From Candidatus Hydrogenedens sp. (GTDB taxonomy: Bacteria; Hydrogenedentota; Hydrogenedentia; Hydrogenedentales; Hydrogenedentaceae), in the NCBI GenBank assembly GCA_049968235.1, contig JBMFRC010000008.1, positions 79,157 to 143,156 of the forward strand: 64,000 nucleotides of DNA, read 5' to 3'. The notes beneath the pieces are model-generated. The model was not told the DNA's origin and did not search any database. It saw nothing but the letters and a program-made list of their open reading frames with translations. Below, one piece after another: positions 6,423 to 60,345 of the stretch. Position numbers and translations under genes: made by a program. Every line of letters begins with the position of its first letter. Within the stretch, counting starts at the first letter, position 1.

Positions 6423-7900
6423 TAACTTTTTCCTGATTGTGCTTTAATATATTTCACCAAATATGGTGTCGCTAATTCTGATTTTTTTCGAATTCCTTGT
6501 AATTTTTGATGACATAAATCATTAAAATAGGATGGGGATTCGTTCTGAAACATTTCATACATCGGGATATATAGAACATTCTCATTATTAAACTTTTTGC
6601 TTAACAGTCTATTATATACATCCAGAACATGGCTATACATACGATAGTTTACGAAATTACCTCCCCACCATCTTTTTGTAACAAACTGGAAATAATCTTT
6701 CTCCTGCCATGTCATCGAGGAATAATTGGGGGCTGGCATACTCATTACTGCAAACAATATACCTTTCTGCTGAAGATAATTGTTTATTTTTTCTATCTGG
6801 CTTAATATATCTTTATTAATATCACTTTGTATTTGTATGTCGTTGGGAAGAAAGAATAGGGGAAAAATATTCCGGCATAAATTTGAATGGATAAGTATTT
6901 TTTTTATTCCGTTCAGATGATTTAACCAGTAAGGCAGTAAAATGTGGGTTATATCATTTGCCCCTTCACAATAGAGAACAAGATTTGGTTCCATCAACAG
7001 ATAATCTGGTAATCTCAGCCATAATTTATGAGCAGAAATGCCCGGTATTCCAGCATTAATCACTTCAATTTTATATTGTTGCTGGAATTGTTCCAATAAA
7101 AGTTTTTCCATGATATTTGGATAGGTTTCTTGCTCTGTAGGACCCTCTTCTGTGGTCGAACCACCGATACATACAATTCGGAACACACCTAATGGTTTAG
7201 GAACTACCACATCCTCATCACGAAATCCAAAATTGTTCGTATGAAATTCATAAGAGTTCAATTGTGCATGTTTCTTATACTCAAAATAAGGTATTTCCCA
7301 GATTCCGTTTCTATCCTTTATATTTCGGGGATAATTATTATTACCTGCTTTATACCAGCATACCATGACCCCACGATTTTTCGTGTCCATTTTATAATAA
7401 ACAAAAAGGTCGGAAATACTTTCCTCACCTTTTGCAAAAGAATGATAATATTTTGAATAAACTTCCTGGCTTTGAATTGGTATTTCCTTCTCTAATATAT
7501 TTATCAGTTCTTCATCAAAGTAATTTTTCGTAGTGGGTTCAGGCAGGTATGTAATTATCTCTTTTTTATCCATATCTTTTACAAGGGTGGTTATTTGATA
7601 AAAAGAAGAAAACAATTGTCTGTCGGTTTCATCCAATTGTAAGAAAAACTTTGCCCGATTGGCATACCATTGAGACATATCAGGAGAGTGAAACTTTTCT
7701 ACAGATTGCAGTGGTTTTTGCGACACAACTTCACTGTGGCTCCATGGAGGTTTATCATTCAAAGAGGAGATGAGAGGATTCTTTTGTATAACAAGATATT
7801 CATATATACGCACTACACATTCAGCAACTGCAATTGCAACAATAATCCAGAGAAAAAAAATCAATATTTTACCGATACTTTTTACGAAATGATATTTCAT
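6422..7900 (-). CDS. SGNH/GDSL-family hydrolase-like protein, a paralog of the previous gene
   Basis: FRIVCIGGSTTEEG, NAGIPGISAH, CEGANDITH, NDLCHQKLQG. There is an N-terminal TM helix. The stop and start abut the neighbouring genes, which suggests operon organisation. Confidence 0.6.
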   Translation of the reverse strand: MKYHFVKSIGKILIFFLWIIVAIAVAECVVRIYEYLVIQKNPLISSLNDKPPWSHSEVVSQKPLQSVEKFHSPDMSQWYANRAKFFLQLDETDRQLFSSFYQITTLVKDMDKKEIITYLPEPTTKNYFDEELINILEKEIPIQSQEVYSKYYHSFAKGEESISDLFVYYKMDTKNRGVMVCWYKAGNNNYPRNIKDRNGIWEIPYFEYKKHAQLNSYEFHTNNFGFRDEDVVVPKPLGVFRIVCIGGSTTEEGPTEQETYPNIMEKLLLEQFQQQYKIEVINAGIPGISAHKLWLRLPDYLLMEPNLVLYCEGANDITHILLPYWLNHLNGIKKILIHSNLCRNIFPLFFLPNDIQIQSDINKDILSQIEKINNYLQQKGILFAVMSMPAPNYSSMTWQEKDYFQFVTKRWWGGNFVNYRMYSHVLDVYNRLLSKKFNNENVLYIPMYEMFQNESPSYFNDLCHQKLQGIRKKSELATPYLVKYIKAQSGKS

Positions 7901-41936: not shown

Positions 41937-43397
41937 ATGGTTCCTATAATTCTTTCCACAATAACAGCCCGATATTCTCATTCTGCCTTTGGTTTGCGTT
42001 ATTTGCATGCAAATCTTGGCAAATGGAAAGAACAATCGCAAATAAAAGAATTCCACCTAAAACAATCCCCCTTATTCATTGCCGAAAGCATTTTGCAGGA
42101 TAAACCTAAAATTGTTGGAATAGGTGTTTATATATGGAATGTGCGTGAGATAACAGAGGTGGTTCAGATAATAAAAAAAGTATCTCCTCAAACTACTATT
42201 ATAATTGGTGGACCGGAGGTAAGTTATGAATATGAGGATATGACCATATTTAAAGAAGCCGATTATTTAATATGTGGTGAAGCGGAACATATTTTTCCTC
42301 AATTAGTTAAAATAATTATGTCGGGTCAATTACCCCCCCGAAAAGTATGGGAAGGAACCATTACGGATGTGAATTCTTTATTCCTACCCTATGAGGAATA
42401 CACATATGAAGATATAGCACACCGAATTATTTATGTGGAGAGTTCTCGAGGTTGTCCTTTCCATTGTGAGTTTTGTTTATCAGCAATAAAACCCGGTGTC
42501 CGCTTCTTTGATAGGGTCCAGTTTTTGAACGAAATGGAAAAACTAATACAGCGGGGAGCAAAAAATTTTACTTTTGTTGACCGAACTTTTAATATTCGGG
42601 AAGAACACGCTTTAGAAATTCTTCGATTTTTTTTGAAACATATCAAAGAAGGTATGCGGATTCATTTTGAGATTGTTCCTGATAAATTAAGTGAAAAGAT
42701 ATTGACAGAATTCACAAAGTTTCCAAAAGGAATTTTACATCTGGAAGTAGGTTTGCAGACCGTAAATTTGAAAACACAGGAGTTGATTTCACGACGGCAA
42801 GATTTATCAAAAACTTTTGAAGTTTTACGCTTCTTGAAAGAAAAAACGGGAGCAAAGATACACGCAGACCTTGTTGCAGGTATGCCTGCAGAAACATGGG
42901 ATAGTTTTCGCAAAGGGTTTAACTATCTTATCGAACTGGCTCCTCAGGAAATTCAATTAGGGATATTAAAACGACTACGCGGTGCTCATATTTCAAGACA
43001 TATTAAAGAATATCAAATGGCTTTTGCCCCTTTCCCTCCTTATGAAATATTACAGACAAGCACTCTATCTTTTGAAAAACTACAGAAATTAAAAAGAATG
43101 GCTCGCTATCTCGAACTCTATTATAACCAAGGGAATTTTCCAAACTCCTTAAAATTCTTATGGGAAACAGGGACTACCCCTTTTGATGCCTTTTCTGATT
43201 TCAGTGATTATATTTGGACAAAGACTGGAAAAACACATGAATTGTCTCTTTCCACTCTTGCTCATTTGTTGTTCTCTTATCTCCTTGCTATAAATAAGTT
43301 TCCACCCGATATTATTGAAAAAGCCATCCGTGAAGATTACAACCAAAAGCCAGGAAGAACTGAGAAACTAAATATATCAAAAAAAATCCCCAAATAA
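41937..43397 (+). CDS. B12-binding-domain radical SAM protein
   Basis: An N-terminal B12-binding-like Rossmann domain, then SSRGCPFHCEFC (Cx3Cx2C). Confidence 0.8.
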   Translation: MVPIILSTITARYSHSAFGLRYLHANLGKWKEQSQIKEFHLKQSPLFIAESILQDKPKIVGIGVYIWNVREITEVVQIIKKVSPQTTIIIGGPEVSYEYEDMTIFKEADYLICGEAEHIFPQLVKIIMSGQLPPRKVWEGTITDVNSLFLPYEEYTYEDIAHRIIYVESSRGCPFHCEFCLSAIKPGVRFFDRVQFLNEMEKLIQRGAKNFTFVDRTFNIREEHALEILRFFLKHIKEGMRIHFEIVPDKLSEKILTEFTKFPKGILHLEVGLQTVNLKTQELISRRQDLSKTFEVLRFLKEKTGAKIHADLVAGMPAETWDSFRKGFNYLIELAPQEIQLGILKRLRGAHISRHIKEYQMAFAPFPPYEILQTSTLSFEKLQKLKRMARYLELYYNQGNFPNSLKFLWETGTTPFDAFSDFSDYIWTKTGKTHELSLSTLAHLLFSYLLAINKFPPDIIEKAIREDYNQKPGRTEKLNISKKIPK

Positions 43398-45187: not shown

Positions 45188-46750
45188 ATGTCTATCCTAT
45201 TGATACTTTTATTATTAACTACTGCTTTTTCACAAACAGAAAAAGAAACTCTTATACAAAATGCCTATCTTAATGGACAAGCCCTTCTTTTCTGTAGAAA
45301 TGTTCTCAATGGATGGATGCAATTTGCGGACCCGGATATAGATTTATTCCCGCGAAATTTGAAAGGAGATACTTATTGGAATGCAAAAGATTGTTCTGCT
45401 GATAACTATCCGTTTCTCACTTTAACTGCTTATTTCACAGACCGTTATATATTTGACACACGAATGAAAAATATTCTTAAAAATGAACAAAAATTTTGCA
45501 ACCGTATGGGCTGTCTTCCCGATGATTTTGACCTTATAAAAAAGGATTTCAGACAACCTGAAATGAAACTATCCGAAATTATTTTTGGTGCATCGGAATA
45601 TATTAAGGATGGGCTTTTACCCTTAACAGAATATCTCGGACCAACGGAATGGTCTGAACGAATGATAGGGCTTATGGATGATATTTGGAAAAATGCAAAA
45701 ATAGAAACAGAAGTAGGGTTACTTCCAGATGTTTCCCATGAAGTCGGGGGAGATTTGTTACAAGGGTTATGTCGAATATATTGGTTAACAGGGGATGATA
45801 AATATAAAGAATGGGCATTTAAATTGGGGGATTATTTCCTCCTGTATCATCTGCCAACAGATAGCGAATATTTCCAACTGGATGACCATGGTTGTGAGGT
45901 TTTTGGGGGACTTTCTGAGGCATATCTGCTGTCCGCATATAAAGCCCCTGATAAAAGGGAACAATGGAAAGAACCCATGCATCGGATGATTCAGAAAATA
46001 TTGAAAACAGGAAGGAACAAAGAGGGGCTATTTTTTGAGGCAATCAATCCGAAAGAGGAGAAAGTAATTCGGGATACCCTGACGGATAATTGGGGCTATA
46101 ACTATAATGCTATTGCTACTGTGGGGATTCTGGATAATCAGAAAGAGTATGTACAGGAAGTGCAAAATACTCTGGATAAGTTATGGGATTCACGGGATTA
46201 TCCGTGGGAGAATGACGGGGCGGATGGATTGGCAGATTCGCTGGAAGGTTGCCTCAATTTAATAAATCGATTTCCATCTGTAAATGCGGAACGATGGGCT
46301 GATTATACCGCACAGCGTCTTTTAAAGAAACAAAGACCCTCTGGAATTGTGGAAGGTTGGCATGGAGATGGAAATACGACAAGAACTATGTTAATGTATG
46401 CTTTCTGGAAATCGCAAGGATGCTATGTTCTCCCATGGAACGCAGAAGTATTTGTCGGTTCCACAAAGAATGAAACAAATAAACTACAAATTATAGTAAA
46501 ATCGAATTGGAAATGGAATGGGAAACTAATGTTTGATATACCAAGATATAGAGATTATTTCCATTTCCCTATAGATTATCCACGATTAAATCAATTCCCA
46601 GAATGGTTCACAGTTGATAAGGACAAAGAATACCTCGTTTATATGGAAGAAAAAGATGAAATAAAGATGAAAGGGGAAGAATTGCAAAAAGGATTACCCC
46701 TCGTTCTTGCACCTAATTCTTCCATTCATATTTCAATATCCATTTTATAA
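45188..46750 (+). CDS. secreted hypothetical protein, possibly an (alpha/alpha)6 glycoside hydrolase
   Basis: Signal peptide. No confident family assignment. Confidence 0.35.
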   Translation: MSILLILLLLTTAFSQTEKETLIQNAYLNGQALLFCRNVLNGWMQFADPDIDLFPRNLKGDTYWNAKDCSADNYPFLTLTAYFTDRYIFDTRMKNILKNEQKFCNRMGCLPDDFDLIKKDFRQPEMKLSEIIFGASEYIKDGLLPLTEYLGPTEWSERMIGLMDDIWKNAKIETEVGLLPDVSHEVGGDLLQGLCRIYWLTGDDKYKEWAFKLGDYFLLYHLPTDSEYFQLDDHGCEVFGGLSEAYLLSAYKAPDKREQWKEPMHRMIQKILKTGRNKEGLFFEAINPKEEKVIRDTLTDNWGYNYNAIATVGILDNQKEYVQEVQNTLDKLWDSRDYPWENDGADGLADSLEGCLNLINRFPSVNAERWADYTAQRLLKKQRPSGIVEGWHGDGNTTRTMLMYAFWKSQGCYVLPWNAEVFVGSTKNETNKLQIIVKSNWKWNGKLMFDIPRYRDYFHFPIDYPRLNQFPEWFTVDKDKEYLVYMEEKDEIKMKGEELQKGLPLVLAPNSSIHISISIL

Positions 46751-47545
46751 AATGGCACCCTCCAAATTATTGGATTTCATTTTACGAGCAATATGAACAA
46801 TCAGCACCAATATTAAAAATGCAATAATAATCCCTATACCTTTATATCCGACCTTTGATACGATAGACCAAATGGCACCAAAAGCAGACAAAGCAAAAGA
46901 AATACAAAGTAATATATTCCACAACCACCATTTGGCTCCCCGAGGCAAATCTTCCTTTAATAATTTTTCCTGATTTAACAATAGCCAGAAAGATAGATAT
47001 GCCAGAGGCAATAAGGTCATACAGAATACAGATGTTGGAATAGCAAGCCACATCTGGGCATCTTTCCAGAATAAAACACCAATAAGGCTCAGTGATACCA
47101 TTAACCCTCCGAAGAATTGTGTCCAGCCTCGTAATGGTCGGTTTAAAAGTTCACAAAAACATAGACTATTGATAAGCATTAACATTGTGGATGCTCCCAA
47201 ACCCATTCCCAATACACCGATACCAAAGATATATTGGGCTATTTTAGAACCGGTTAAAGGTTTAAGTGCATCAGAAAGATTAAATGCATCACGACGAACC
47301 ATCATTGCAGACAATTTTCGGTCGGATTCCGGTAAGTTTCTAACTCTTTCTTCTTTTTCCTCATTGGATAAACTATTCCATACCTGTTCACCTATTTCGT
47401 AGATAACTCTTCCCTCCATAAGTTTTTGAAAACTTCCTATTAAATTGGGGGCAGGTTGAATGATATTACCCTTTTCATCTCGTTCACCCAGGAAACCCGG
47501 TGCAGGTTTAGCATGGAACGTGCCGCAGAAGCAATTACTACGCAA
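46745..47545 (-). CDS. polytopic membrane protein; possible C-terminal half of a split NRAMP/APC-fold transporter
   Basis: Five predicted TM helices after a hydrophilic start. It overlaps the upstream ORF by 106 nt in a different frame. Confidence 0.35.
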   Translation of the reverse strand: MRSNCFCGTFHAKPAPGFLGERDEKGNIIQPAPNLIGSFQKLMEGRVIYEIGEQVWNSLSNEEKEERVRNLPESDRKLSAMMVRRDAFNLSDALKPLTGSKIAQYIFGIGVLGMGLGASTMLMLINSLCFCELLNRPLRGWTQFFGGLMVSLSLIGVLFWKDAQMWLAIPTSVFCMTLLPLAYLSFWLLLNQEKLLKEDLPRGAKWWLWNILLCISFALSAFGAIWSIVSKVGYKGIGIIIAFLILVLIVHIARKMKSNNLEGAIL

Positions 47546-48501
47546 CTTGTAGCAAGGATAAATGGAAAAAATAGTCCTGTAGACAGGTCAAATATCGCTA
47601 ATCCACGAAATTCACGGTCCCAACCTTTTCGTAACATAGAATAAGGTAACATAAAAGTCATGTTTATACCCACTGCTGTTGCAGCAGCACTTATCATTAC
47701 ATCGCGTTGTTGAGAGACGATTAGATTTGTCCAGTAAGAACGAAATTTTTCAGGAACCTGTTCAATATAAGGTATCAAGTCTTTAGAGGGATGAAATAGT
47801 AATGAAAAATCCGGAATAAATCCTGCTAAATATTTTTGCCAATGAACCTGTCCTGTTACAGTTAATACGACAACAACACCGAAAAAGCATATAACAACAG
47901 AGCCTACCATTGTTTTGATAATTATTTCGAATATTTTTACACCTTTTCCTCCTACGGTATACATGGTAAGGAATGTTAGATTAATTCCTAACACAATGAG
48001 CCCTGCCATAACCTTACCTGTAAAAGGTTCTACCGTTGGAGGACCAAAAACTTGAGGAAGTAAATTCTGTTGAAAGGAGGCGATGGCAATAGAATATTGA
48101 GGCATAGACCAAACCATGTTTGCCAACATGGAAGCGAACAACCAACTCCAGCCTAATACAGGGCTTACAAACTCATTGATTGTTCGTACCGGTCTTCGTC
48201 CTGTGGATAGTGTTACATACGCAATAGCACTTAACATAATTATTCCAGCAATCATTGCCAGAGGTTGTAACCATAAAAGTCCAAAACCAACTAGTACACC
48301 TAAATACATACTGGATGATAAGGACCCACCTCCTAATGTTATTGCACTCTGAAGCCAACCCGGACCCGAAAGACGGACAAATGTTTTAAATAACTTCCCT
48401 TTCCCTCCTTTGCGGGACTGTATTATCATTTCCCGTTCTCTCTGTATATGGGGTGCGATAGATTTCATTTGCTCTAATACAGGGTCTTTGTATTCCGACA
48501 T
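47440..48501 (-). CDS. NRAMP-like membrane protein (N-terminal TM1-7 region)
   Basis: …GPGWLQSAITLGGG… resembles the NRAMP GPGFL…DPGN region, with DPGN replaced. Seven predicted TM helices. Confidence 0.4.
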   Translation of the reverse strand: MSEYKDPVLEQMKSIAPHIQREREMIIQSRKGGKGKLFKTFVRLSGPGWLQSAITLGGGSLSSSMYLGVLVGFGLLWLQPLAMIAGIIMLSAIAYVTLSTGRRPVRTINEFVSPVLGWSWLFASMLANMVWSMPQYSIAIASFQQNLLPQVFGPPTVEPFTGKVMAGLIVLGINLTFLTMYTVGGKGVKIFEIIIKTMVGSVVICFFGVVVVLTVTGQVHWQKYLAGFIPDFSLLFHPSKDLIPYIEQVPEKFRSYWTNLIVSQQRDVMISAAATAVGINMTFMLPYSMLRKGWDREFRGLAIFDLSTGLFFPFILATSCVVIASAARSMLNLHRVSWVNEMKRVISFNLPPI

Positions 48502-51933: not shown

Positions 51934-52983
51934 TTATTGTTTAGAGATAGTCTGCCACACTGTATAAGCTAGTTTTTCAGTTCCATCTGTTTTAATCAAT
52001 CCTATTGTATCATTTTCATTTAAATCGTGAAGCCATGGCCAACCCAGCAAATACAAATTTATTCCTCTATCTTTCGTAAGCCTGTTAACTAATTGAGTAA
52101 TAAATTCTGCTTGTGCTTGTTCACCCCCAAATTCTTTGAGTGAGGTCCATGCAACCTCTGAGAAACCAAATGCTTTCCCGTGCATGTATTCTAAAGCCCT
52201 AAAATAATAATCATCGGGAATTAATGATGGATTTGTAATTCCAAGGGAATAAGGATAACTTGTAAAAACAAGTAAATCCATTTTATCGGGATTGAATAAC
52301 CGAAGTATTTCCAAATCTGCTTCCCTATTCTCCGAAACAATTTCCCGAGCAAAAACACAGAATAGTTTGATCTCTGGAGAAAGTTTTTTTGCATCATCAT
52401 AAATTTCTTCATAGAGGCTTATAAAATAATGGAAGCCATTGGGACCTTCCAGTCCATATTTTTCATACCATCTATTTACTTCATTGCCAACAGAAAGATA
52501 TAATGGTCGAACGGTTTTTATCACATCTAAAACCGCCTTTTTGTATTCGCTCCTCCATGTTACATCGCTTAAACTCGCATTCTCTATTCCAGGTGGAATT
52601 ACAAGAGTTAACCCGCTTCCGAAGAAGGATAGATGAATAATGGGAAACATACCTTTGTTACGAACTAAATCCTGTACAAAAACCTGACCCCATTCTCCTT
52701 TTAAGTCATTTGCAAGGTTATAAAAAGTAGAAGGTTTTCCCCACACAGGAACAAATTCTGAATAGTGGCTTGCTTGTAAATACGCATCTTCAAAAGATTG
52801 CCCCCGGGCGGGAATGGGTAATAATCCCATAAAGAAACCTCGTATAGGAAGTTGATGCATATCTAATGGGACTATTTCGGGCTCATCAGAAATTGGTTTC
52901 TTACAGCCCGTAGGTAAGAAAAATATACAGAAAATTATAATACCGATGAAAATAACTTGTTTCCGTATATTTACTCTGTACAT
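51934..52983 (-). CDS. lipoprotein, clan GH-A TIM-barrel glycoside-hydrolase-like
   Basis: Lipobox LPTGC. VGNEVNRW looks like the NEP acid/base motif. GFSEVAW looks like the nucleophile Glu motif. Confidence 0.45.
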   Translation of the reverse strand: MYRVNIRKQVIFIGIIIFCIFFLPTGCKKPISDEPEIVPLDMHQLPIRGFFMGLLPIPARGQSFEDAYLQASHYSEFVPVWGKPSTFYNLANDLKGEWGQVFVQDLVRNKGMFPIIHLSFFGSGLTLVIPPGIENASLSDVTWRSEYKKAVLDVIKTVRPLYLSVGNEVNRWYEKYGLEGPNGFHYFISLYEEIYDDAKKLSPEIKLFCVFAREIVSENREADLEILRLFNPDKMDLLVFTSYPYSLGITNPSLIPDDYYFRALEYMHGKAFGFSEVAWTSLKEFGGEQAQAEFITQLVNRLTKDRGINLYLLGWPWLHDLNENDTIGLIKTDGTEKLAYTVWQTISKQ

Positions 52984-53120: not shown

Positions 53121-56015
53121 TTAGTTCTTCATAAAATCTGCTACTTTACGCCAACGTAGCAATAACAATCCGGAAACCAATCCTAACGTCAGCATATCTC
53201 CGACATGTGAACTATTTGTGCTACTTCCCGAACCGCACGATACGATGAAACGACGTTTTGCACCTTTGCTGATTACAAGGTTAACCGCACTTCCACGGTC
53301 TACTTGAGAACCGGCGGTTGGGGCTTGACGAATCACTTTACCTTTTGGAACTTTATCACTATATTCCTGAGTAATAGTGCCTACAATCAGACCTGCAGAA
53401 GTAATTAGAGACCTTGCTTCTGCTTCCGTTTTTCCGACCACATCCGGGACAGTAACTTTATTGCTTGGAGTTTCACCTTCACCTTCTATAGTTCCTTCCG
53501 GGCTCCCTTCGGGAGTTCCTTCAACTACACCCTCATGTGCCCCTTCGGGTGTCCCTTCGACTAAACCTTCAGAAGTCCCTTCCGGGGTCCCTTCCACTAC
53601 ACCTTCGGGAGTTCCTTCGGGGGTCCCTTCTCCTTCTGGGGTCGGTTCTTGTTTTAATATTTTCGGTGCTTTCGGGTCATTAAACATAGGAACATGTGCA
53701 TATATATCGTTAATCCGTACTTGTGCCAATACCAAATCCGCATTACCTCCATCACCTTTCATGGTAAACTGGATATTGACCAATACAACACCATCTCCCT
53801 TTGTCCCTATGTTCTCTTCACCTGCAGCACTGATTCTCAAACTACCACTGGAATTGACATCATCATTGTAAACTAATTCTAATCCACTGGCAGAAGAGCC
53901 TAATTCTACACTATCCACCTGGGCTAAATCTTTATCAAAATTAAGCACCATCGCAAAACCGGATATGTTTGCCACATTATCGGCTAATACAGATATAGTT
54001 TTCTGAGTTCCGGGTTCGCCTGTCAATGCTTCACTTAACCAGACATTTACAGATACATCTGATTTCTCTATCTCGGCTAAGATGGCTTCTGCGGATAAAG
54101 AGCCTGCATCGGCTAACCACAAAACATCCTTGAGATATTCATCATAACTCTTCATTAATTCTTTTTGCTTCGGTGGAGTAATATTTTTCCCGGCTAACCA
54201 ACGCTGTATTAAACTGGAGTCTGCACTATCTACCAATCCATCAAGGTTAATATCACCCGATTTCATAATGCATTCATTTCCGGCAACTTTCTTAACCCAG
54301 TAAGATAAGATGTACTGTGCATCTGCTTTCTCTACAACTTTGTTATTATCTGCATCACCATGGATACATCCGCCGGTTACACATAACTGGCCATCTTCCA
54401 ATTCCAAATCCAGAGGTTTTGTTTGAGCATTTATCTCACCTGTATTGGCTACATCATAAAGTCGGACACCATTTCCGGCTCCGTCATCAGGGATAAGATG
54501 TAAAGAACCACATTGTGTATCTTCCAAAGATAGGTTTGGTTTTGCCAGAATATTAAATAATGTTCCTGCTCCATATAAACTTCCACCTTGAACGCCTGCT
54601 GCAGCAATACGAACATTATAGATACCTGCTCCTGTATATATTGCATTCGCTGAAATCATCATACCTACGGTAATACCTGAAGGTGCTACTTCCATATTAT
54701 CCATATCTAAAAGTAAATCGGCAGGAAGTTCTGCATCTATCTGAATTGATGTAGTGGACACATCATAGACCGACCTGGAATTAACCGGAATACGCACTTG
54801 CCACTGTTGTGGGTCTTGCGGATTTCGCTCCCACAAATATAGACTGGGTTCTTTGTAGGCAACATCATCAGGGAAGAATATTGTCAAAAACTGCCCTTTT
54901 ACCTGTTCTGAAGCAGGGGATAGATTTGTATACCTATTCACATCACTAACAGCCTGTATTGCATATTCATAATAAGTAGAAGGTTGAACAGTAGTATCTT
55001 CATATTCCAGCCCTGCAATATAACCTTCATACGGTTGTGCGGAAGGATTATTTAATCTTTCCCAGACAGGATTTCCCACTACACGGCGATATACATTATA
55101 TCCCGCTATATTATATTCTGGATTTGTATCCCAGGCTACGCGAACACTATGCGGTCCACTATAAACACGCGGTTTACTCGGCACCTGTATATTACCAGGT
55201 TCCAATTCCACAAGGACATTTGCACCAGAATTAACAGGTTGGACTGTCTTGGACTTATATTTACGTTTTGTAAAATCTAACCGATAAGGCGGGTTTAATG
55301 TGCCTAAATTAGGGAATGAAAAGCGTCCATTGGCATCGGTAACGACTGGTGCGGTGCTTTGCTTATCTGCAATGCTAATTTCAACAGTAACGCCCGCAAC
55401 GGGTTTTTTGCTAATACTATTGACAACTACTCCTTGAACCGTATTTGTTGTTTCTCCTTCAACAGTTCCTTCTGGCACCCCTTCCGGTGTACCTGTATAT
55501 TCACTCGTAAAATTAAAAGTTTCTGTGTTTGAATATAATTGTCCACCCGTTAAGCGGTACAAAGCCTGCGATTGGATTTGGGCAGGTCCTTGAGCCGAAG
55601 ATGGGATGCTTACATTTATACTTAGCTTGAAAGGGAAAGAGGGTACAAATATCCATCCGAATTCTAATGGATTTATCCCATCTGAAGCAGTACCAACCTG
55701 AGGAGCAATAGGAGGCTGATTTGTTCCTCCCTGATATTGCCATCCCGCAGGGAGCAAACAGGTTAAGCCTAATGCAGTTATCGTCTCCGATGTGTTTTTG
55801 TTAAATGTAATATTTACATTGATTGTGCTACCGGGGACATATTGGTTTTGCCCAACTGCATCCCCAAATACTCCTTGAACAATGCTAACTTCACTTGTCT
55901 GGGCATTTCCTTCTGCAATTATAACTAATGAAAAAAACATTAGTATCAAAGAAATACCTACGCTTTTCCCCCATAAATTGGGGAAAGCACTTGTCTTGAA
56001 AAATTTTTTAGTCAT
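53121..56015 (-). CDS. giant secreted multidomain protein: CarbopepD_reg-like, FN3-like, dockerin-like, TPEG linker, PASTA, C-terminal sorting-like tail
   Basis: Signal peptide. GVTVEI…TDANGRFSF (CarbopepD_reg-like). RVAWDTNPEYNIAGYNVYRR (FN3). GDADNNKVVEKADAQYIL and GDINLDGLVDSADSSLIQRWLAG (two dockerin calcium-binding loops). A TPEG repeat stretch. VPDVVGKTEAEARSLITSAGLIVG…GSAVNLVISKG (PASTA). The tail is RFIVSCGSG-TM-RWRK. Confidence 0.6.
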   Translation of the reverse strand: MTKKFFKTSAFPNLWGKSVGISLILMFFSLVIIAEGNAQTSEVSIVQGVFGDAVGQNQYVPGSTINVNITFNKNTSETITALGLTCLLPAGWQYQGGTNQPPIAPQVGTASDGINPLEFGWIFVPSFPFKLSINVSIPSSAQGPAQIQSQALYRLTGGQLYSNTETFNFTSEYTGTPEGVPEGTVEGETTNTVQGVVVNSISKKPVAGVTVEISIADKQSTAPVVTDANGRFSFPNLGTLNPPYRLDFTKRKYKSKTVQPVNSGANVLVELEPGNIQVPSKPRVYSGPHSVRVAWDTNPEYNIAGYNVYRRVVGNPVWERLNNPSAQPYEGYIAGLEYEDTTVQPSTYYEYAIQAVSDVNRYTNLSPASEQVKGQFLTIFFPDDVAYKEPSLYLWERNPQDPQQWQVRIPVNSRSVYDVSTTSIQIDAELPADLLLDMDNMEVAPSGITVGMMISANAIYTGAGIYNVRIAAAGVQGGSLYGAGTLFNILAKPNLSLEDTQCGSLHLIPDDGAGNGVRLYDVANTGEINAQTKPLDLELEDGQLCVTGGCIHGDADNNKVVEKADAQYILSYWVKKVAGNECIMKSGDINLDGLVDSADSSLIQRWLAGKNITPPKQKELMKSYDEYLKDVLWLADAGSLSAEAILAEIEKSDVSVNVWLSEALTGEPGTQKTISVLADNVANISGFAMVLNFDKDLAQVDSVELGSSASGLELVYNDDVNSSGSLRISAAGEENIGTKGDGVVLVNIQFTMKGDGGNADLVLAQVRINDIYAHVPMFNDPKAPKILKQEPTPEGEGTPEGTPEGVVEGTPEGTSEGLVEGTPEGAHEGVVEGTPEGSPEGTIEGEGETPSNKVTVPDVVGKTEAEARSLITSAGLIVGTITQEYSDKVPKGKVIRQAPTAGSQVDRGSAVNLVISKGAKRRFIVSCGSGSSTNSSHVGDMLTLGLVSGLLLLRWRKVADFMKN
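53470..53650 (-). repeat. in-frame low-complexity tandem repeat encoding (T/S)PEG(V/T)xEG linker units
   Basis: Reiterated cccttc(g/c)gg… units on the + strand. They encode PTPEGEGTPEGTPEGVVEGTPEGTSEGLVEGTPEGAHEGVVEGTPEGSPEGTIEGEGE. Confidence 0.8.
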
Positions 56016-56190: not shown

Positions 56191-58515
56191 TTAGTTAAGA
56201 AATGGGGATTTGATTTTCCGTCCTACGCGAATAAGAAGTAAACCAGAGGTCAAACTAAGCAGGATTATATCTGCTAGGTATGAACTATGGGTGTTATTGA
56301 GACCACAGGATACGATAAATCTGGGTTTTGCTCCTTTGCTTACTACCAGGTTTACAGCAGACCCAGAATTTACCTGTGTTTGAGCGGGAGGATTTTGACT
56401 AATTACTTTGCCTGCAGGGACAGTATCACTATATTCCCGAGTAATAGAGCCTACAACCAGACCTGCAGAAGTAATTAGAGACCTTGCTTCTGCTTCCGTT
56501 TTCCCAACCACATCCGGGACGGTAACTTTACTTAGAGTTTCCCCTTCTGTTGTTCCTTCGGGAGTCCCTTCTGTTGTTCCTTCCTGCGTTCCTTCTGGAG
56601 TCGGTTCCTGCTTCAAAATTTTCGGAGCTTTCGGGTCATTAAATAACGGAACATGGGCATAAACATCGTTAATTCTTACCTGGGCTAACACTAACTCCGC
56701 ATTTCCACCATCATCTTTCATTCTGAAACGAACCTTTAATAATTCAACGCCGTTCCCTTTTACACCTATATTATTTTCACCCGCAGCACTTACTCTGAGA
56801 TTGCCACTATCGTTTACATCAGAGTTATAACTTAGTTGTAACCCTGTTGCAGCATTACCTAACTGAACACTTACTACCTCTGCTAAATCTTTATCGAAAT
56901 TCAACATCATGTTATAACCCGATATATTAGCCACATTATCTGCTAATACAGATATGGTCTTTTCGGTTCCCGCAGTACCTGTTAATACATCACTTAACCA
57001 AACATTAACAGTAACATCTGCTTTCTCTATATCTGCCAAAATTGCTTCTGCGGATAATGACCCCGCATCTGCTAACCATAAAACATCCTGGAGATATTCA
57101 TCATAACTCTTTTCTAATCCTTTAGTTTTGGGTGGTGTTATATCTTTTCCTGCCAACCAGCGTTGAATTAAACTGGAGTCCGCACTATCTACCAGTCTGT
57201 CAAGGTTAATATCACCTGATTTCATGATACATTCATTGCCATTGTTCTTCTTTACCCAATAGTCTAATACATATTGAGCATCTGCTTTCTCTACAATTTT
57301 GTTATTATCTGCATCACCATGGATACATCCACCTGTCACGCAAAGTTCTCCATCTTGTAATTCCAGGTCCAGTGGTCTCGAGATCGAGGTTACATCATAT
57401 AGACGCACTCCATTTCCTGCACCATCATCCGGAATAAGATGTAAAGGACCACATTGTGTCCCTTGAACAGATAAATTAGGGCTCGCAAGAATATTAAATA
57501 ATGTTCCACTTCCATATAAACTACCTGCTTCTACCCCTGCAGCTGCTATGCGAACACTTATCTTATTATTCTGATAGGTTGCATTTGCAGATATTATCAT
57601 ACCCGCTGTTATCCCTGACGGCTGAACATCTATAGTATTCGGGTCTAATAATAATCCAGAAGGTAATTCTGCATCTATTTGCACTGATGTGGCAGATACA
57701 TCATAAACCGATTTCGAGTTTACTGGAATACGCACCTGCAATTGTTGTGGGTTTTGTGGATTTCGCTCCCACAGATATAGACCCGCATCATTATAATTTA
57801 CTTGTTCTGGGAAAAATACCGTTAAGAATTGTCCTTTTACCTGTTCTGAAGCGGAGGATAAACCTGTATAACCGTCAACATCACTAACAGCCTGAATTGC
57901 ATATTCATATAAGGTGGAAGGTTGCACTGTTTTATCTTCATATTCAAGCCCGGCAATATAATTTTCATACGGCTGAGAACTAGGGCTGTTCAATCTTTGC
58001 CACGTTTGCGTTCCTGCTATACGACGATAAACATTATACCCCGCAATATTGTATTCCGGATTAGCGTCCCATCCTACACGAACGCTACGAGGACCACTAT
58101 ATACACGCGGAATCGCTGGTGTTTGAATGTTGCCCGGTTCTAATTCTACCTGAATATTCGCACCAGAATTAACAGGTTGAACGGTTTTGGGCTTATATTT
58201 ACGCTTTGTAAAATCTAACCGATAAGGCGGGTTTAATGTGCCTAAATTAGGGAATGAAAAGCGTCCATTGGCATCGGTAACGACTGGTGCGGTGCTTTGT
58301 TTATCCGCGACACTGATTTCTACTGTGACACCTGCTACAGGTTTTTTACTGATACTATTGATTACCTGTCCTTGAACATTGTTCACAGATTGACCCTCAA
58401 CATGAGCAATAAAAATTGTGCTGGATGTTAACCCTATTAATAATGTAATTATGGCTAATACAAGAACTTTTGTTAAAGATGATTTGACACATAATACACT
58501 TTTAAACATACTCAT
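56191..58515 (-). CDS. paralog of 53121..56015, lacking the first ~190 aa; same CarbopepD_reg/FN3/dockerin/PASTA/C-terminal-tail architecture
   Basis: Long stretches are identical or near-identical to the upstream copy at both protein and nucleotide level. It has its own signal peptide. Confidence 0.6.
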   Translation of the reverse strand: MSMFKSVLCVKSSLTKVLVLAIITLLIGLTSSTIFIAHVEGQSVNNVQGQVINSISKKPVAGVTVEISVADKQSTAPVVTDANGRFSFPNLGTLNPPYRLDFTKRKYKPKTVQPVNSGANIQVELEPGNIQTPAIPRVYSGPRSVRVGWDANPEYNIAGYNVYRRIAGTQTWQRLNSPSSQPYENYIAGLEYEDKTVQPSTLYEYAIQAVSDVDGYTGLSSASEQVKGQFLTVFFPEQVNYNDAGLYLWERNPQNPQQLQVRIPVNSKSVYDVSATSVQIDAELPSGLLLDPNTIDVQPSGITAGMIISANATYQNNKISVRIAAAGVEAGSLYGSGTLFNILASPNLSVQGTQCGPLHLIPDDGAGNGVRLYDVTSISRPLDLELQDGELCVTGGCIHGDADNNKIVEKADAQYVLDYWVKKNNGNECIMKSGDINLDRLVDSADSSLIQRWLAGKDITPPKTKGLEKSYDEYLQDVLWLADAGSLSAEAILADIEKADVTVNVWLSDVLTGTAGTEKTISVLADNVANISGYNMMLNFDKDLAEVVSVQLGNAATGLQLSYNSDVNDSGNLRVSAAGENNIGVKGNGVELLKVRFRMKDDGGNAELVLAQVRINDVYAHVPLFNDPKAPKILKQEPTPEGTQEGTTEGTPEGTTEGETLSKVTVPDVVGKTEAEARSLITSAGLVVGSITREYSDTVPAGKVISQNPPAQTQVNSGSAVNLVVSKGAKPRFIVSCGLNNTHSSYLADIILLSLTSGLLLIRVGRKIKSPFLN
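56540..56630 (-). repeat. shorter TPEG-type linker repeat in the second paralog
   Basis: Encodes PTPEGTQEGTTEGTPEGTTEGE. Confidence 0.75.
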
Positions 58516-58607
58516 TCTCCTTTAATTTTAATTTTAATTTTTTTACCGCTTTTACGATGAGTCCCTCTAATCCCATCGTACTCTCCCATACTAGAGAGGT
58601 CATTTAA

Positions 58608-58616
58608 ATTATAACA
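58608..58616 (-). promoter_or_regulatory. candidate extended -10 element (TGTTATAAT on the minus strand) upstream of 56191..58515
   Basis: The same 9-mer as upstream of the paralog, about 95 nt upstream of the start codon. Confidence 0.25.
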
Positions 58617-58914
58617 CAAATTTCAAAAGTTTGCATAAATTTTTATAATTCTTTATAGATAGTGTTAAAATGTAAGATTTTCTCTCCGAGTAAGAGGCCT
58701 ATTTCAATATAAATCATACAAAATACCATTTCTACATGCTATTTATAGTAAATATATGCTATTTTTTACTGTTATAATGAAACCTTACATCAAATTAAAA
58801 CTCTATTATAAAAAATCTATCTGATTATAGTATTCATTGATATAAATTAATGTGAGATGTAATCGAAGTATTAACTCACTTGTAATTACTTTTCTTTTCT
58901 TGTAATTAAGAATA

Positions 58915-60345
58915 CTATTTTTTAATAGGAATTTTGTATTCTCTCATTTTTCGCCACAGCGTAGAACGCGAGATACCTAATATTCGTGCCGCTTCAGTTT
59001 GGTTATGATTAACTTTTTCCAGCACTTTTTGAATATGGTTTGCCTCTACTTCTGCCAGGGGTAGAAGCCCATTATCCTCTTCATGAGGAAGTGCAAGTAT
59101 CTTAAACCTACCCCGTTGTATATTCTCAGGCAAATCATATACACGGATAATCGGTTCTTCTGCCATAATAACCGCATGGGCAATGATACTTTCCAATTCC
59201 CGGACATTTCCCGGAAATGGATAAGTTCTTAATACAGCAATGGCGGAATTATCAATCCCCTGAATATTTTTTCCAAATTTTTGATTGTACCGTGAAATAA
59301 AATGCTGGATTAAAGTGGGTAATGCATCTATTCGTTCACGCAGAGGAGGAATACGAATTTGAATGACATTTAGTCGATAGAACAAATCATCACGGAATCT
59401 ATGTTTCTCGACCTCCTCCTGTAAATTTTTATTTGTAGCAGACAGAATGCGGACATTTACTTTTTGTATTATATTAGAACCTACAGGGCGAATTTCGCCA
59501 TTTTGTAAAACACGAAGTAGTTTTGCTTGTGTGGATAATGCCATATCGCCGATTTCATCTAAAAAAACCGTTCCTCCATCTGCCTCTGCAAATAGTCCTC
59601 GCTTATCTTTTTCTGCCCCGGTAAAAGCCCCCTGAACATGTCCAAAAAGTTCACTTTCTAATAAATTTTCAGGTAATGCGGCACAATTAATCGCAATAAA
59701 AGGTTTATCACTACGAGAACTAAGCCGATGAAGTATCTGAGCAACGACTTCTTTTCCAACACCGCTTTCACCTAAAATCAGAACCGTACTGTCTGTAGGA
59801 GCTACTTTACGTATAATTTCCACAACACGACGCATCTGAGCATTATTACCGGATAATTCTTCAAATAAGATTTGTTCAAACCCGGCTTCTTGTAATTTTT
59901 CTCTATGATGTTCCAATACAGCCCGATGAACCATTACCGCAATATCCGTAGGGTCACACTTCTTAGGGATATAAAAATATGCCCCCATTCGAATACCTTC
60001 AAGGGCTTGTTCTATTTGTTCCATATTGTAAAGGAGAATTAATTTTACGGAGGGGAACTTCTGCCTAAGAAAGGAAACAAGATTAATATTACCTTTGTAT
60101 TCTATGGATAAATCTAAAAGAATTACATCACATACGGTTCGACGGGAACATGTCAAAATCTGCTCCGTAGAACTGCATAAAATAACAGTATGCCCCGTTC
60201 CTTCGATAAAGCGAGAAACAGTACTGAGGTAATCCATATCAGAGCCAATGATAAATACAGTCCCCTGTTCTCGAGCAAGAGGTGGCTCATTCTGTTCAAA
60301 AAGTTTCAAATTGATAATATCTTTTTTTGTTTTTTTATCGGTCAT
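58915..60345 (-). CDS. sigma-54-dependent response regulator (REC + AAA+ sigma-54 activator + Fis-type HTH)
   Basis: GESGVGKE Walker A, GAFTGA motif, ESELFGH, and a C-terminal HTH. The receiver is atypical: GSD in place of the DD pair, with a phospho-acceptor-like D in VILLDLS. Confidence 0.85.
   Translation of the reverse strand: MTDKKTKKDIINLKLFEQNEPPLAREQGTVFIIGSDMDYLSTVSRFIEGTGHTVILCSSTEQILTCSRRTVCDVILLDLSIEYKGNINLVSFLRQKFPSVKLILLYNMEQIEQALEGIRMGAYFYIPKKCDPTDIAVMVHRAVLEHHREKLQEAGFEQILFEELSGNNAQMRRVVEIIRKVAPTDSTVLILGESGVGKEVVAQILHRLSSRSDKPFIAINCAALPENLLESELFGHVQGAFTGAEKDKRGLFAEADGGTVFLDEIGDMALSTQAKLLRVLQNGEIRPVGSNIIQKVNVRILSATNKNLQEEVEKHRFRDDLFYRLNVIQIRIPPLRERIDALPTLIQHFISRYNQKFGKNIQGIDNSAIAVLRTYPFPGNVRELESIIAHAVIMAEEPIIRVYDLPENIQRGRFKILALPHEEDNGLLPLAEVEANHIQKVLEKVNHNQTEAARILGISRSTLWRKMREYKIPIKK

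What the first reader, a model, noticed from the sequence alone, without database searches (positions are those of the whole stretch)
53121..53262. Conserved C-terminal tail (RFIVSCG – hydrophobic helix – R-x-x-RK) on both paralogs: candidate protein-sorting or anchoring signal
The first protein ends …AKRRFIVSCGSGSSTNSSHVGDMLTLGLVSGLLLLRWRKVADFMKN. The second, at 56191..56332, ends …AKPRFIVSCGLNNTHSSYLADIILLSLTSGLLLIRVGRKIKSPFLN. Each has a short conserved motif with an invariant Cys, then a spacer, a single TM helix and a basic cluster. This is the grammar of sortase, exosortase, archaeosortase and rhombosortase C-terminal sorting signals. It lacks their known motifs: there is no LPXTG, PEP, PGF or GlyGly. 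It may be the tag of an uncharacterised sorting system. The motif Cys could be a lipidation or processing site.
Basis: seen in the sequence. Interest (0 to 1): 0.55.

Follow-up and report, generated by a model that had tools for sequence, protein, structure and literature searches.

The report
New Cys-type C-terminal sorting tag
The two tails are copies of a portable ~46-residue C-terminal tag (basic residues, Ile-Val-Ser-Cys-Gly, polar spacer, Asp, short membrane helix, basic cluster) carried by many unrelated secreted proteins of the candidate phylum Hydrogenedentota; it is most likely an undescribed relative of the MYXO-CTERM class of surface-sorting signals.

Summary
Both paralogs (964 and 774 aa, 72% identical, Candidatus Hydrogenedens sp.) end in K-x-R-F-I-V-S-C-G, a 10-11-residue polar spacer, Asp, a 13-residue hydrophobic run and a basic cluster. 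The tail is not confined to these paralogs. It sits at the extreme C-terminus of at least eight unrelated secreted-protein architectures, several per genome. These include an M4 metalloprotease, giant Ig-repeat adhesins and cohesin-bearing proteins. Among 65 aligned distinct tails only Cys and Asp are invariant (Lys and Gly above 90%), and Cys-to-Asp spacing is 11-12 in 57 of 70. In one orthologous protease family the tail is replaced by a dockerin or by Cys-free TM/Arg tags in other lineages. All eight of Haft's operational criteria for a tripartite sorting signal are met. No NCBIfam or Pfam model describes the tail; one diverged variant scores 18.6 bits against MYXO-CTERM (cutoff 20). No processing enzyme was found next to any client, and processing itself is untested. 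Best reading: a new lineage-specific member of the Cys-containing sorting signals, with Cys lipidation and intramembrane cleavage inferred by analogy.

The parts
53121..56015 (-). W1: 964-aa secreted protein. Layout: signal peptide, unassigned N-terminal module, CarboxypepD_reg, dockerin-like, cohesin, acidic EG(T/V)PEG linker, PASTA, C-terminal tag.
   Evidence: ORF; Pfam; signal-peptide-like N-terminus by inspection.
53232..53258 (-). W1 signature motif KRRFIVSCG (Cys codon at 53235-53237).
   Evidence: Across 70 detector-matched tails, position -3 is Ile in 57, -2 is I/V/L in 63, -1 is S/G/A in 57 and +1 is Gly in 66. Cys is invariant and Lys and Gly exceed 90% in the 65-tail alignment.
53199..53231 (-). 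W1 polar spacer SGSSTNSSHVG (Ser/Thr/Asn/Gly-rich).
   Evidence: Cys-to-Asp spacing is 11-12 in 57 of 70 tails. The equivalent stretch in W2 is an irregular, lower-confidence linker in the AF2 model.
53196..53198 (-). W1 invariant Asp at the start of the membrane helix.
   Evidence: Invariant in 65 of 65 aligned tails. The equivalent Asp in W2 lies in the first turns of the predicted helix.
53157..53195 (-). W1 hydrophobic run MLTLGLVSGLLLL (13 aa, with small Gly/Ser residues mid-helix).
   Evidence: The run is 13-15 aa in 61 of 70 tails.
53124..53156 (-). W1 basic cluster and short cytoplasmic end, RWRKVADFMKN.
53265..53456 (-). W1 PASTA domain immediately upstream of the tag.
   Evidence: Pfam PF03793, E = 2e-20; coordinates.
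56191..58515 (-). W2: 774-aa paralog, 72% identical to W1 but lacking W1's extra N-terminal module; same C-terminal tag.
56302..56328 (-). W2 signature motif KPRFIVSCG (Cys codon at 56305-56307).
56272..56301 (-). W2 polar spacer LNNTHSSYLA.
   Evidence: AF2 model residues 78-95 are irregular with pLDDT 57-69.
56269..56271 (-). W2 invariant Asp (D749).
56230..56268 (-). W2 hydrophobic run IILLSLTSGLLLI.
   Evidence: The AF2 helix spans model residues 96-119, which is SYLADIILLSLTSGLLLIRVGRKI.
56194..56229 (-). W2 basic cluster and C-terminal end, RVGRKIKSPFLN.
56335..56526 (-). W2 PASTA domain immediately upstream of the tag.
   Evidence: Pfam PF03793, E = 8.9e-21; AF2 pLDDT above 90.

Best explanation
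The tails are two copies of a portable, lineage-specific C-terminal sorting/anchoring domain of the candidate phylum Hydrogenedentota. Its grammar is: a basic residue or residues, three hydrophobic residues, a small residue, Cys-Gly, a 10-11-residue polar spacer, Gly/Ala-Asp, a short 13-15-residue hydrophobic helix, then a Lys/Arg cluster. [quoted passage not shown] SHOWN: the module, its portability, its strict C-terminal position, its invariant Cys and Asp, its exchange with dockerins and other tags in orthologs, and its absence from current domain libraries. INFERRED BY ANALOGY with the myxosortase model: after Sec export the helix holds the protein in the inner membrane of this diderm. The Cys sits in a lipobox-like I-[IV]-S-C context on a flexible linker about 7 residues from the helix, and it is lipid-modified. 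An intramembrane protease, most likely a CPBP/Rce1-type myxosortase homolog encoded elsewhere in the genome, then removes the Asp-containing helix. The protein is left C-terminally lipid-anchored for envelope or surface display. For the two window proteins, which carry cohesin and dockerin modules, the tag would act as the membrane anchor of a scaffoldin-like surface protein.
For: Portability: the tail occurs on the W1/W2 family, on 1.9-kaa DUF7948/Ig/CarboxypepD_reg proteins, on an FTP-M4 protease-TIG protein, on Ig-repeat plus HYDIN/VesB-like Ig proteins, on a 192-aa single-Ig protein, on 4xPASTA giants, on a GLUG-5xPASTA-cohesin protein and on PKD proteins. With the tail removed, many pairs share no BLAST similarity. 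Several copies per genome: at least 4 in Ca. H. terephthalaticus and 4 in MAG CAKZKR01. Every profile hit above 10 bits in 662 kb lies within 15 residues of a C-terminus. Cys and Asp are invariant, Lys and Gly exceed 90%, and the spacing is fixed. All full-length members have signal-peptide-like N-termini. In one orthologous M4 protease family, members at 68-100% identity carry the tail. Members at 34-56% carry diverged Cys-Gly...Asp-TM-basic versions. About 55 members carry a dockerin instead, and more distant ones carry Cys-free TM/Arg tags. One diverged tail reaches 18.6 bits on MYXO-CTERM TIGR03901 (cutoff 20), aligned from its G-C-G. A variant ending GGCGCG-x15-Asp-TM-KKQRK shares a contig with a standard tail. 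The AF2 model places the Cys motif in an irregular linker outside the PASTA fold and the Asp in the first turns of a single 24-residue helix. The envelope is diderm (LptF/G; MlaDEF), so a bare C-terminal helix would trap these adhesin- and enzyme-like proteins in the inner membrane. Many-client housekeeping sorting enzymes are not expected next to their clients (Haft 2023). The mechanism for MYXO-CTERM is described in PMC11980579.
Against: No cleavage, lipidation or localisation data exist. No CPBP, exosortase, rhomboid or sortase gene was found in the window or within 10 kb of any of about 40 client loci, and whole genomes could not be searched. The window tails score nothing on MYXO-CTERM or any other sorting model. 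MYXO-CTERM lacks charged residues in its helix, whereas Asp is invariant here. A PASTA domain directly before the tag in most members would also suit a permanent inner-membrane anchor near peptidoglycan. Position -1 is Phe, Trp, Asn or Met in about 15% of tails, which does not fit a lipobox. Distant homologs P0017 and P0022 keep Gly-Asp-helix-Arg without a nearby Cys motif.
Confidence: 0.6

Rival explanations
1. The tail is a permanent type I membrane anchor. It is an uncleaved stop-transfer helix with a conserved juxtamembrane module. The protein stays in the inner membrane, PASTA contacts peptidoglycan, and the Cys serves for disulfide pairing or S-acylation. The Asp would mediate helix-helix contacts with a partner membrane protein.
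For: No processing enzyme was found near any client. PASTA domains directly precede the tail in most members. The cytoplasmic ends can be long and Lys-rich, up to about 18 residues.
Against: The hydrophobic run after the Asp is only 13-15 residues, with a charged residue in the helix, which is weak for a permanent anchor. The cargo consists of adhesin-like giants, a secreted M4 protease and cohesin proteins, and orthologs use a dockerin instead, which points to extracellular display in a diderm. A fixed Cys-Gly...Asp geometry conserved down to about 35% cargo identity is typical of an enzyme recognition site.
Confidence: 0.25
2. The tail is a sorting signal read at the Gly-Asp/helix boundary by an exosortase-, archaeosortase- or rhombosortase-like enzyme, or by an unknown enzyme. 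The Asp would play the role of the Glu in PEP-CTERM, and the Cys motif would be an accessory feature rather than the modification site.
For: Asp is as invariant as Cys and sits where PEP, PGF and GlyGly motifs sit, at the start of the helix. Distant homologs P0017 and P0022 keep G-D-[LV]-[IL]-L-L...Arg-Arg without a nearby Cys motif. More distant M4 protease homologs carry Cys-free VPxxP-TM-RRR tags.
Against: No hit to PEP-CTERM, GlyGly-CTERM or PGF-CTERM models, even at E <= 10. No exosortase or rhomboid gene was seen in any neighbourhood. The Cys is strictly invariant, which in the four known Cys-type signals correlates with CPBP proteases. JDVT-CTERM shows that a conserved Asp in the helix is compatible with a CPBP enzyme.
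Confidence: 0.12
3. There is no functional module. The similarity is only shared ancestry of two tandem paralogs, or chance.
For: Within the window only the two 72%-identical paralogs carry the tail.
Against: The same tail occurs on proteins with no other similarity to W1/W2, with profile E-values down to 1e-15 against 1.84 billion proteins.
Confidence: 0.01

Closest known systems
MYXO-CTERM (TIGR03901), sorted by the myxosortase MrtX, a CPBP/Rce1-type intramembrane glutamic protease
   Same: Both have the tripartite design with an invariant Cys followed by Gly, a membrane helix and a basic cluster. Both have many unrelated secreted clients per genome in a diderm, and clients are not adjacent to the enzyme. 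One diverged Hydrogenedentota tail scores 18.6 bits against the 20-bit cutoff, aligned from G-C-G, and one variant has GCGCG.
   Different: The window tails do not register on the model at all. This tag has an upstream Lys/Arg plus Ile-Val/Ile-Ser lipobox-like context, a longer 10-11-residue polar spacer and an invariant Asp in the helix. MYXO-CTERM has no charged residues in its helix. The phylum differs, and myxosortase homologs were previously reported only in Myxococcota and Bradymonadales.
JDVT-CTERM (NF033191), sorted by MrtJ
   Same: Both have a single invariant Cys followed by a conserved Asp further downstream in or at the helix. Four diverged tails even read D-x-x-P. Weak sub-threshold matches occur for 3 of 65 tails.
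   Different: [quoted passage not shown] Here the Asp lies 12-13 residues after the Cys at the helix start, usually with no Pro, there are several clients per genome and no adjacent protease.
GlyGly-CTERM/rhombosortase (e.g. Vibrio VesB) and PEP-CTERM/exosortase
   Same: The overall grammar and cargo types match: secreted proteases and adhesins. P0044 and P0046 have a HYDIN/VesB-like Ig domain directly before the tag, as VesB does. The invariant acidic residue sits at the helix start, as in PEP.
   Different: There is no Gly-Gly or Pro-Glu-Pro motif and no model hits. The invariant Cys is not a feature of those signals.
Anchoring scaffoldins of cellulosomes (SLH- or LPXTG-anchored cohesin proteins; from my own knowledge)
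   Same: W1/W2 and the L037 protein combine cohesin modules with a C-terminal cell-anchoring device. Orthologs of a tail-bearing protease carry dockerins instead.
   Different: The anchor here is a Cys-type membrane tag in a diderm, not SLH or sortase. Cohesin-dockerin pairing was not tested.

Membership tests
Tripartite C-terminal sorting signal (Haft's operational criteria, 10.1101/2023.06.07.544157 section 5) | 1. [quoted passage not shown] | tested here: met
   All 36 distinct profile hits above 10 bits in 662 kb end 0-15 residues from the stop codon.
Tripartite C-terminal sorting signal (Haft's operational criteria) | 2. [quoted passage not shown] | tested here: met
   Two in the window. 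At least 4 in Ca. H. terephthalaticus (L003 twice, L012, L014) and 4 in MAG CAKZKR01. These are lower bounds, because only a strict pattern was scanned.
Tripartite C-terminal sorting signal (Haft's operational criteria) | 3. [quoted passage not shown] | tested here: met
   In the 65-tail alignment Lys exceeds 90%, Cys is 100% and Gly exceeds 90%; among 70 detector-matched tails position -3 is Ile in 57 and +1 is Gly in 66. Asp is also 100%.
Tripartite C-terminal sorting signal (Haft's operational criteria) | 4. Strongly hydrophobic transmembrane segment | tested here: met
   An uncharged run of 13-15 residues follows the Asp. AF2 predicts a single 24-residue helix. The segment is short, with the Asp inside.
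Tripartite C-terminal sorting signal (Haft's operational criteria) | 5. Basic cluster at the end | tested here: met
   Two to four Lys/Arg residues follow the helix directly in all members. Low-GC genomes are Lys-rich and high-GC ones Arg-rich.
Tripartite C-terminal sorting signal (Haft's operational criteria) | 6. N-terminal signal peptide on most members | tested here: met
   All full-length members start with a basic n-region and a hydrophobic h-region. This was by inspection; no SignalP was run.
Tripartite C-terminal sorting signal (Haft's operational criteria) | 7. Pairs of members with no similarity outside the signal | tested here: met
   Body-only all-against-all BLAST finds no hit for the M4 protease against all others, for W2 against P0044/P0046, or for the small L019 protein against the W family.
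Tripartite C-terminal sorting signal (Haft's operational criteria) | 8. Homologs elsewhere lack the signal or carry a different one | tested here: met
   Among M4 protease orthologs, about 55 end in a dockerin and others in Cys-free TM/Arg tags. W-family homologs P0017, P0018, P0022 and P0023 have other tails.
Tripartite C-terminal sorting signal (Haft's operational criteria) | A cognate sorting enzyme co-occurs with the signal | tested here: inconclusive
   None was found within 10 kb of about 40 client loci or in the window. Genome-wide profiling was not possible with these tools.
Tripartite C-terminal sorting signal (Haft's operational criteria) | The signal is actually cleaved or modified | not testable with these tools
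   This needs proteomics or genetics.
MYXO-CTERM (TIGR03901) | Scores at or above the model's 20-bit cutoff | tested here: not met
   The window tails give no hit at E <= 10. One of 65 tails matches, at 18.6 bits.
MYXO-CTERM (TIGR03901) | No charged or Pro residues in the helix; a second Cys is frequent (GCGC) | tested here: not met
   Asp is invariant in the helix and almost all members have a single Cys. The one exception is the GCGCG variant in L037.
MYXO-CTERM (TIGR03901) | A myxosortase core domain (NF040914) is present in the same genomes | not tested
JDVT-CTERM (NF033191) | Model cutoff of 27 bits; Asp-Pro nine residues after the Cys; one client per genome with an adjacent MrtJ | tested here: not met
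   The best score is 13.6 bits, over the TM/Arg part only, and 3 of 65 tails give weak hits. The Asp lies 12-13 residues after the Cys, usually without Pro. There are several clients per genome and no adjacent CPBP.
LPXTG / PEP-CTERM / GlyGly-CTERM / PGF-CTERM | The signature motif is present and the domain model is matched | tested here: not met
   The motifs are absent from the sequences and no model hits any Cys-type tail.
Bacterial lipoprotein lipobox (Lgt/Lsp substrates; consensus [LVI][ASTVI][GAS]C from my own knowledge) | Lipobox residues at -3 to -1 before the Cys | tested here: inconclusive
   I-[IV]-S-C fits, and 57 of 70 tails have S/G/A at -1. However, 7 have Phe, 2 have Trp, and Asn, Met, Cys and Arg also occur.
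Bacterial lipoprotein lipobox (Lgt/Lsp substrates) | The lipobox follows the h-region of an N-terminal signal peptide | tested here: not met
   The motif is C-terminal and precedes the helix instead of following it. It is preceded by Lys/Arg and only 3 hydrophobic residues.

The most novel reading that the evidence does not exclude
This is a previously unrecognised sorting system of a largely uncultured diderm phylum. Its C-terminal tag combines a true lipobox-like Cys site with a second invariant determinant, an Asp in the first turn of the membrane helix. It would be read by a dedicated enzyme or enzyme pair that does not belong to any described myxosortase subfamily. The system would tether a cohesin-dockerin surface assembly of scaffoldin-like proteins plus dockerin- or tag-bearing enzymes to the envelope. 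That would give the first sequence-level support for Lgt-type lipidation of C-terminal Cys signals.
Probability: 0.3. Interest if true: 0.7.

Novelty: new member of a known kind. Interest (0 to 1): 0.5.

Why it matters
C-terminal sorting tags determine which proteins a bacterium displays on its surface, and each new class has led to a new processing enzyme: sortase, exosortase, rhombosortase, myxosortase. This tag is absent from NCBIfam release 20.0 and Pfam, so Hydrogenedentota surface proteins are currently named only by incidental domains such as "PASTA domain-containing protein". A model of the tag would mark the surface proteome of an uncultured phylum common in anaerobic digesters. It would also provide the query profile for finding the cognate enzyme by phylogenetic profiling. 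Its unusually clear lipobox-like context around the invariant Cys bears on an open question in the myxosortase field, namely which enzyme lipidates the Cys. The swap between tag and dockerin in orthologous proteases also points to a cohesin-dockerin surface system in a diderm phylum.

Tried and rejected
1. A tail-only profile of the two window tails against the 5.8-billion word-indexed database returned nothing. This was a limit of the word index, because the exhaustive search later found the same proteins at E of about 1e-15.
2. A 15-tail alignment was too diverse for back-translated genome scanning. An 8-tail alignment worked.
3. I searched for a sorting enzyme in the window and in all client neighbourhoods. 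I used a hydropathy and CPBP-motif screen, Pfam scans and precomputed annotations. Only PMT-type glycosyltransferases, MFS, TauE, Nramp, MatE, DUF502 and cytochrome b561 turned up, with no CPBP, exosortase, rhomboid or sortase.
4. I could not obtain a real myxosortase sequence to use as a probe.
5. Known sorting-domain models were tested on 12, then 10, then 65 tails. Nothing reached a cutoff.
6. A sigma-54 promoter upstream of the paralog pair, suggested by the adjacent sigma-54 activator gene, was not found. Pattern matches were at chance level and none lies in 58516-58914.
7. The idea that FIVSCG is the last strand of the PASTA fold was rejected. The motif occurs without PASTA, and AF2 leaves it as an irregular linker.
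8. Literature searches for Hydrogenedentota plus sorting signal, exosortase, CAAX or dockerin gave nothing specific.
Full report
OBSERVATION. The two genes lie on the minus strand: W1 at 53121..56015 (964 aa) and W2 at 56191..58515 (774 aa). The plus-strand translation of the given ranges is full of stops. Each tail divides into five elements (coordinates verified):
- Signature motif: K-R/P-R-F-I-V-S-C-G (W1 53232-53258; W2 56302-56328).
- Polar spacer of 10-11 residues.
- An Asp (W1 53196-53198; W2 56269-56271).
- A 13-residue uncharged run with Gly/Ser in the middle.
- A basic cluster followed by a few more residues.
The proteins are tandem paralogs, 72% identical over 758 aa. Each has a signal-peptide-like N-terminus, CarboxypepD_reg, a dockerin-like segment, a cohesin, an acidic EG(T/V)PEG linker and a PASTA domain directly before the tail. 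No third copy exists in the window. Inside the window, therefore, paralogy alone could explain the similarity.

ORGANISM. Neighbouring genes are identical to genes in two NCBI MAG assemblies. Homologs are named Candidatus Hydrogenedens sp. or Hydrogenedentes bacterium. This is the phylum Candidatus Hydrogenedentota in the FCB group. LptF/G and MlaDEF genes next to related client genes show a diderm, LPS-type envelope.

IS THE TAIL PORTABLE?

Full-length homologs keep the tail down to about 35% identity. At that distance it reads K-x-R-[IV]-L-F-C-G ... G-D-[IL]-[IL]-L-L ... R-K-R.

A genome scan with K[RP][RK]FI[VI]SCG found 37 pattern matches. By my calculation, about 33 are expected by chance in 596 Gb. 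Twelve of the matches continue into the rest of the tail, and all twelve lie in five Hydrogenedentota-type MAGs, with up to four per genome. The metagenome scan added 26 loci.

The ORFs ending in these tails include orthologs of W1/W2, and also the following:
- Proteins of about 1,900 aa with DUF7948, Ig-like repeats and CarboxypepD_reg.
- Proteins of about 1,750 aa with four PASTA domains.
- A 1,234-aa FTP-M4 metalloprotease-TIG protein with no PASTA and no BLAST similarity to W1/W2.
- A GLUG-5xPASTA-cohesin protein.

An exhaustive profile search of 1.84 billion representatives returned only 22 hits, two of them repeat artefacts. It added Ig-repeat proteins whose last domain before the tail is a HYDIN/VesB-like Ig domain, as well as PKD proteins. 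A 192-aa single-Ig protein next to one of these also carries the tail.

With tails removed, many pairs share no similarity. Every profile hit above 10 bits in 662 kb of collected sequence lies within 15 residues of a C-terminus. The tail is therefore a portable C-terminal module, not a by-product of paralogy.

ANATOMY. A regex detector matched 70 distinct tails, one of them spurious; 65 distinct tails were aligned. The counts over the 70 are:
- Position -3 is Ile in 57.
- Position -2 is I/V/L in 63.
- Position -1 is Ser, Gly or Ala in 57; Phe in 7 and Trp in 2.
- Position +1 is Gly in 66.
- A Lys lies about 7 residues upstream in more than 90% of the aligned tails.
- Cys-to-Asp spacing is 11-12 in 57 (range 11-17).
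- The residue before the Asp is Gly or Ala in 51.
- The uncharged run after the Asp is 13-15 residues in 61.
In the 65-tail alignment only Cys and Asp are invariant.

An AlphaFold2 model of the last 125 residues of W2, built with 13 aligned sequences, gives a confident PASTA fold. Residues 78-95, which hold the Cys motif, form an irregular linker with pLDDT 57-69. One helix spans residues 96-119 and starts four residues before the Asp. The Cys motif is thus not part of the PASTA fold, and the Asp sits in the first turns of the membrane helix.

EXCHANGE WITH OTHER ANCHORS. The M4 protease family gives an evolutionary series within the phylum:
- Members at 68-100% identity carry K-R-R-F-I-I-S-C-G...G-D-TM-K-K.
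- Members at 53-56% carry I-L-[NCW]-C-G, 13-15 residues, Asp, TM and Lys.
- Members at about 40% carry C-L-G-C-G-A-G-G, M-M-G-C-G, A-L-A-C-G and similar, then G-D-TM-R-R.
- Members at 34-36% carry L-L-G-C-G...[YIQ]-D-[LF]-x-P-TM-R-R-R.
- About 55 orthologs end in a dockerin instead.
- More distant homologs, some from Planctomycetota-labelled MAGs, end in Cys-free VPxxP-TM-RRR tags.
Replacement of a tag by another attachment device in orthologs is Haft's eighth criterion for a sorting signal. It also links the tag to the cohesin modules of W1/W2.

COMPARISON WITH KNOWN SIGNALS. All eight of Haft's operational criteria are met; the membership table gives the detail. No NCBIfam release 20.0 model reaches its cutoff on any of 65 tails, and the window tails give no hit even at E <= 10. 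Pfam shows nothing over the tail.

The nearest approach is one diverged protease tail at 18.6 bits on MYXO-CTERM (cutoff 20, E = 0.0018), aligned from its G-C-G. A GGCGCG variant also shares a contig with a standard tail. JDVT-CTERM is the known signal with a Cys followed by a conserved Asp. There, however, the Asp-Pro lies nine residues after the Cys in mid-helix, there is one client per genome and the protease is adjacent. None of that holds here. No paper links this phylum to any sorting signal or sortase-like enzyme.

MECHANISM. Shown: the module, its grammar, its portability and its exchangeability. Inferred: processing.

For the four known Cys-type signals, the cognate enzymes are CPBP/Rce1-type intramembrane glutamic proteases. 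For MYXO-CTERM, MrtX-dependent and Cys-dependent cleavage has been demonstrated. The working model there is Sec export, lipidation of the Cys (Lgt is suspected), cleavage distal to the Cys and T2SS-dependent surface display.

I propose the same sequence of steps for this tag. The I-[IV]-S-C context fits the lipobox consensus in most members. That is notable because the lack of a defined lipobox was cited as a difficulty for Lgt in MYXO-CTERM. The strictly conserved Asp and the small residues in a short helix fit recognition by an intramembrane protease (argument). That no protease is adjacent to about 40 client loci is expected for a many-client housekeeping enzyme, but it leaves the enzyme unidentified.

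Three rival readings remain:
- An uncleaved inner-membrane anchor, favoured by the adjacent PASTA domains.
- A signal read at the Gly-Asp/helix boundary by an exosortase-like enzyme, favoured by homologs P0017 and P0022, which keep G-D-helix-Arg without a nearby Cys motif.
- Mere paralogy, which is refuted.

VERDICT. The interpretation as a candidate sorting/anchoring signal is supported and sharpened. The tail is a lineage-specific, so far undescribed member of the Cys-containing tripartite C-terminal sorting signals. It has two distinctive features: a lipobox-like Cys context with a fixed spacer, and an invariant Asp in the helix. Processing and the enzyme remain to be shown. Interest is moderate. 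It is a useful new domain definition and a good handle on the surface biology of an uncultured phylum, but it is of a kind that is already well populated.

Noticed in passing
window 53121-56015 (-) and 56191-58515 (-); P0067-P0127: W1 and W2 each combine a dockerin-like double Ca-loop segment with a cohesin domain. About 55 orthologs of the tail-bearing M4 protease end in a dockerin instead of the tail. This suggests a cohesin-dockerin surface assembly in Hydrogenedentota, with W1/W2 as membrane-anchored scaffoldin-like proteins.
   Followed up: partly
L003 512-1102; L020 6421-7011; P0004/P0005/P0006: The W2 ortholog in Ca. H. terephthalaticus and two other sources is split. There is a 582-aa N-terminal product ending GGERQWC and a separate 197-aa ORF carrying PASTA plus the tail. 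A recurrent frameshift or pseudogene is likely.
   Followed up: partly
window 46745-48501 (-), around 47520: The Nramp transporter gene is split into two overlapping ORFs (266 and 353 aa) by a 1-bp deletion relative to the otherwise near-identical MAG GCA_049971155.1, where it is a single 585-aa gene. This is either an assembly error or a real pseudogene.
   Followed up: yes
window 41937-43397 (+): This is one 486-aa ORF (B12-binding/radical SAM plus DUF4080) in the window, but two genes of 242 and 244 aa in the sibling MAG. It is the opposite case of an assembly or frameshift difference.
   Followed up: no
window 866-4858 (+) and 7897-10113 (-); L041 5389-7317: Two very large PMT_2 (GT-C glycosyltransferase) plus TPR membrane proteins lie in the window. 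A PMT-type glycosyltransferase also lies directly upstream of a tail-bearing gene in L041. The tail spacers are Ser/Thr/Asn-rich with frequent N-x-S/T, so the spacer may be glycosylated.
   Followed up: no
window ~55530-55856 (W1 residues ~54-162); P0044, P0046, P0014: W1's extra N-terminal module (ITALGLTCLLPAGWQYQGG...) has no Pfam match. It is homologous to repeated N-terminal modules of the Ig-repeat tail-bearing proteins P0044 and P0046 and to a C-terminal segment of P0014. It is an unassigned domain shared among clients.
   Followed up: partly
P0017, P0022 (distant W-family homologs): These keep G-D-[LV]-[IL]-L-L, a helix and Arg-Arg at the C-terminus, but have no Cys motif within about 40 residues upstream. 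The Asp-helix-basic part may be the older core of the tag.
   Followed up: no
window 58516-60345 (-): A sigma-54-dependent response regulator gene lies directly upstream of W2. A similar regulator lies near the M4 protease in L046. No -24/-12 promoter consensus was found in the 400-bp gap.
   Followed up: yes
L006; P0101: A MAG labelled 'uncultured Nitrospirales' and a protein labelled 'Nitrospiraceae' carry Hydrogenedentota-type tail or dockerin genes. Contigs are probably mis-binned or mislabelled.
   Followed up: no
window 51934-52983 (-): The gene just downstream of W1 encodes a 349-aa protein with no Pfam hit. Its N-terminus (…FFLPTGCKKP) looks like a classical N-terminal lipoprotein signal with a lipobox. 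This shows what a conventional lipobox looks like in this organism.
   Followed up: no
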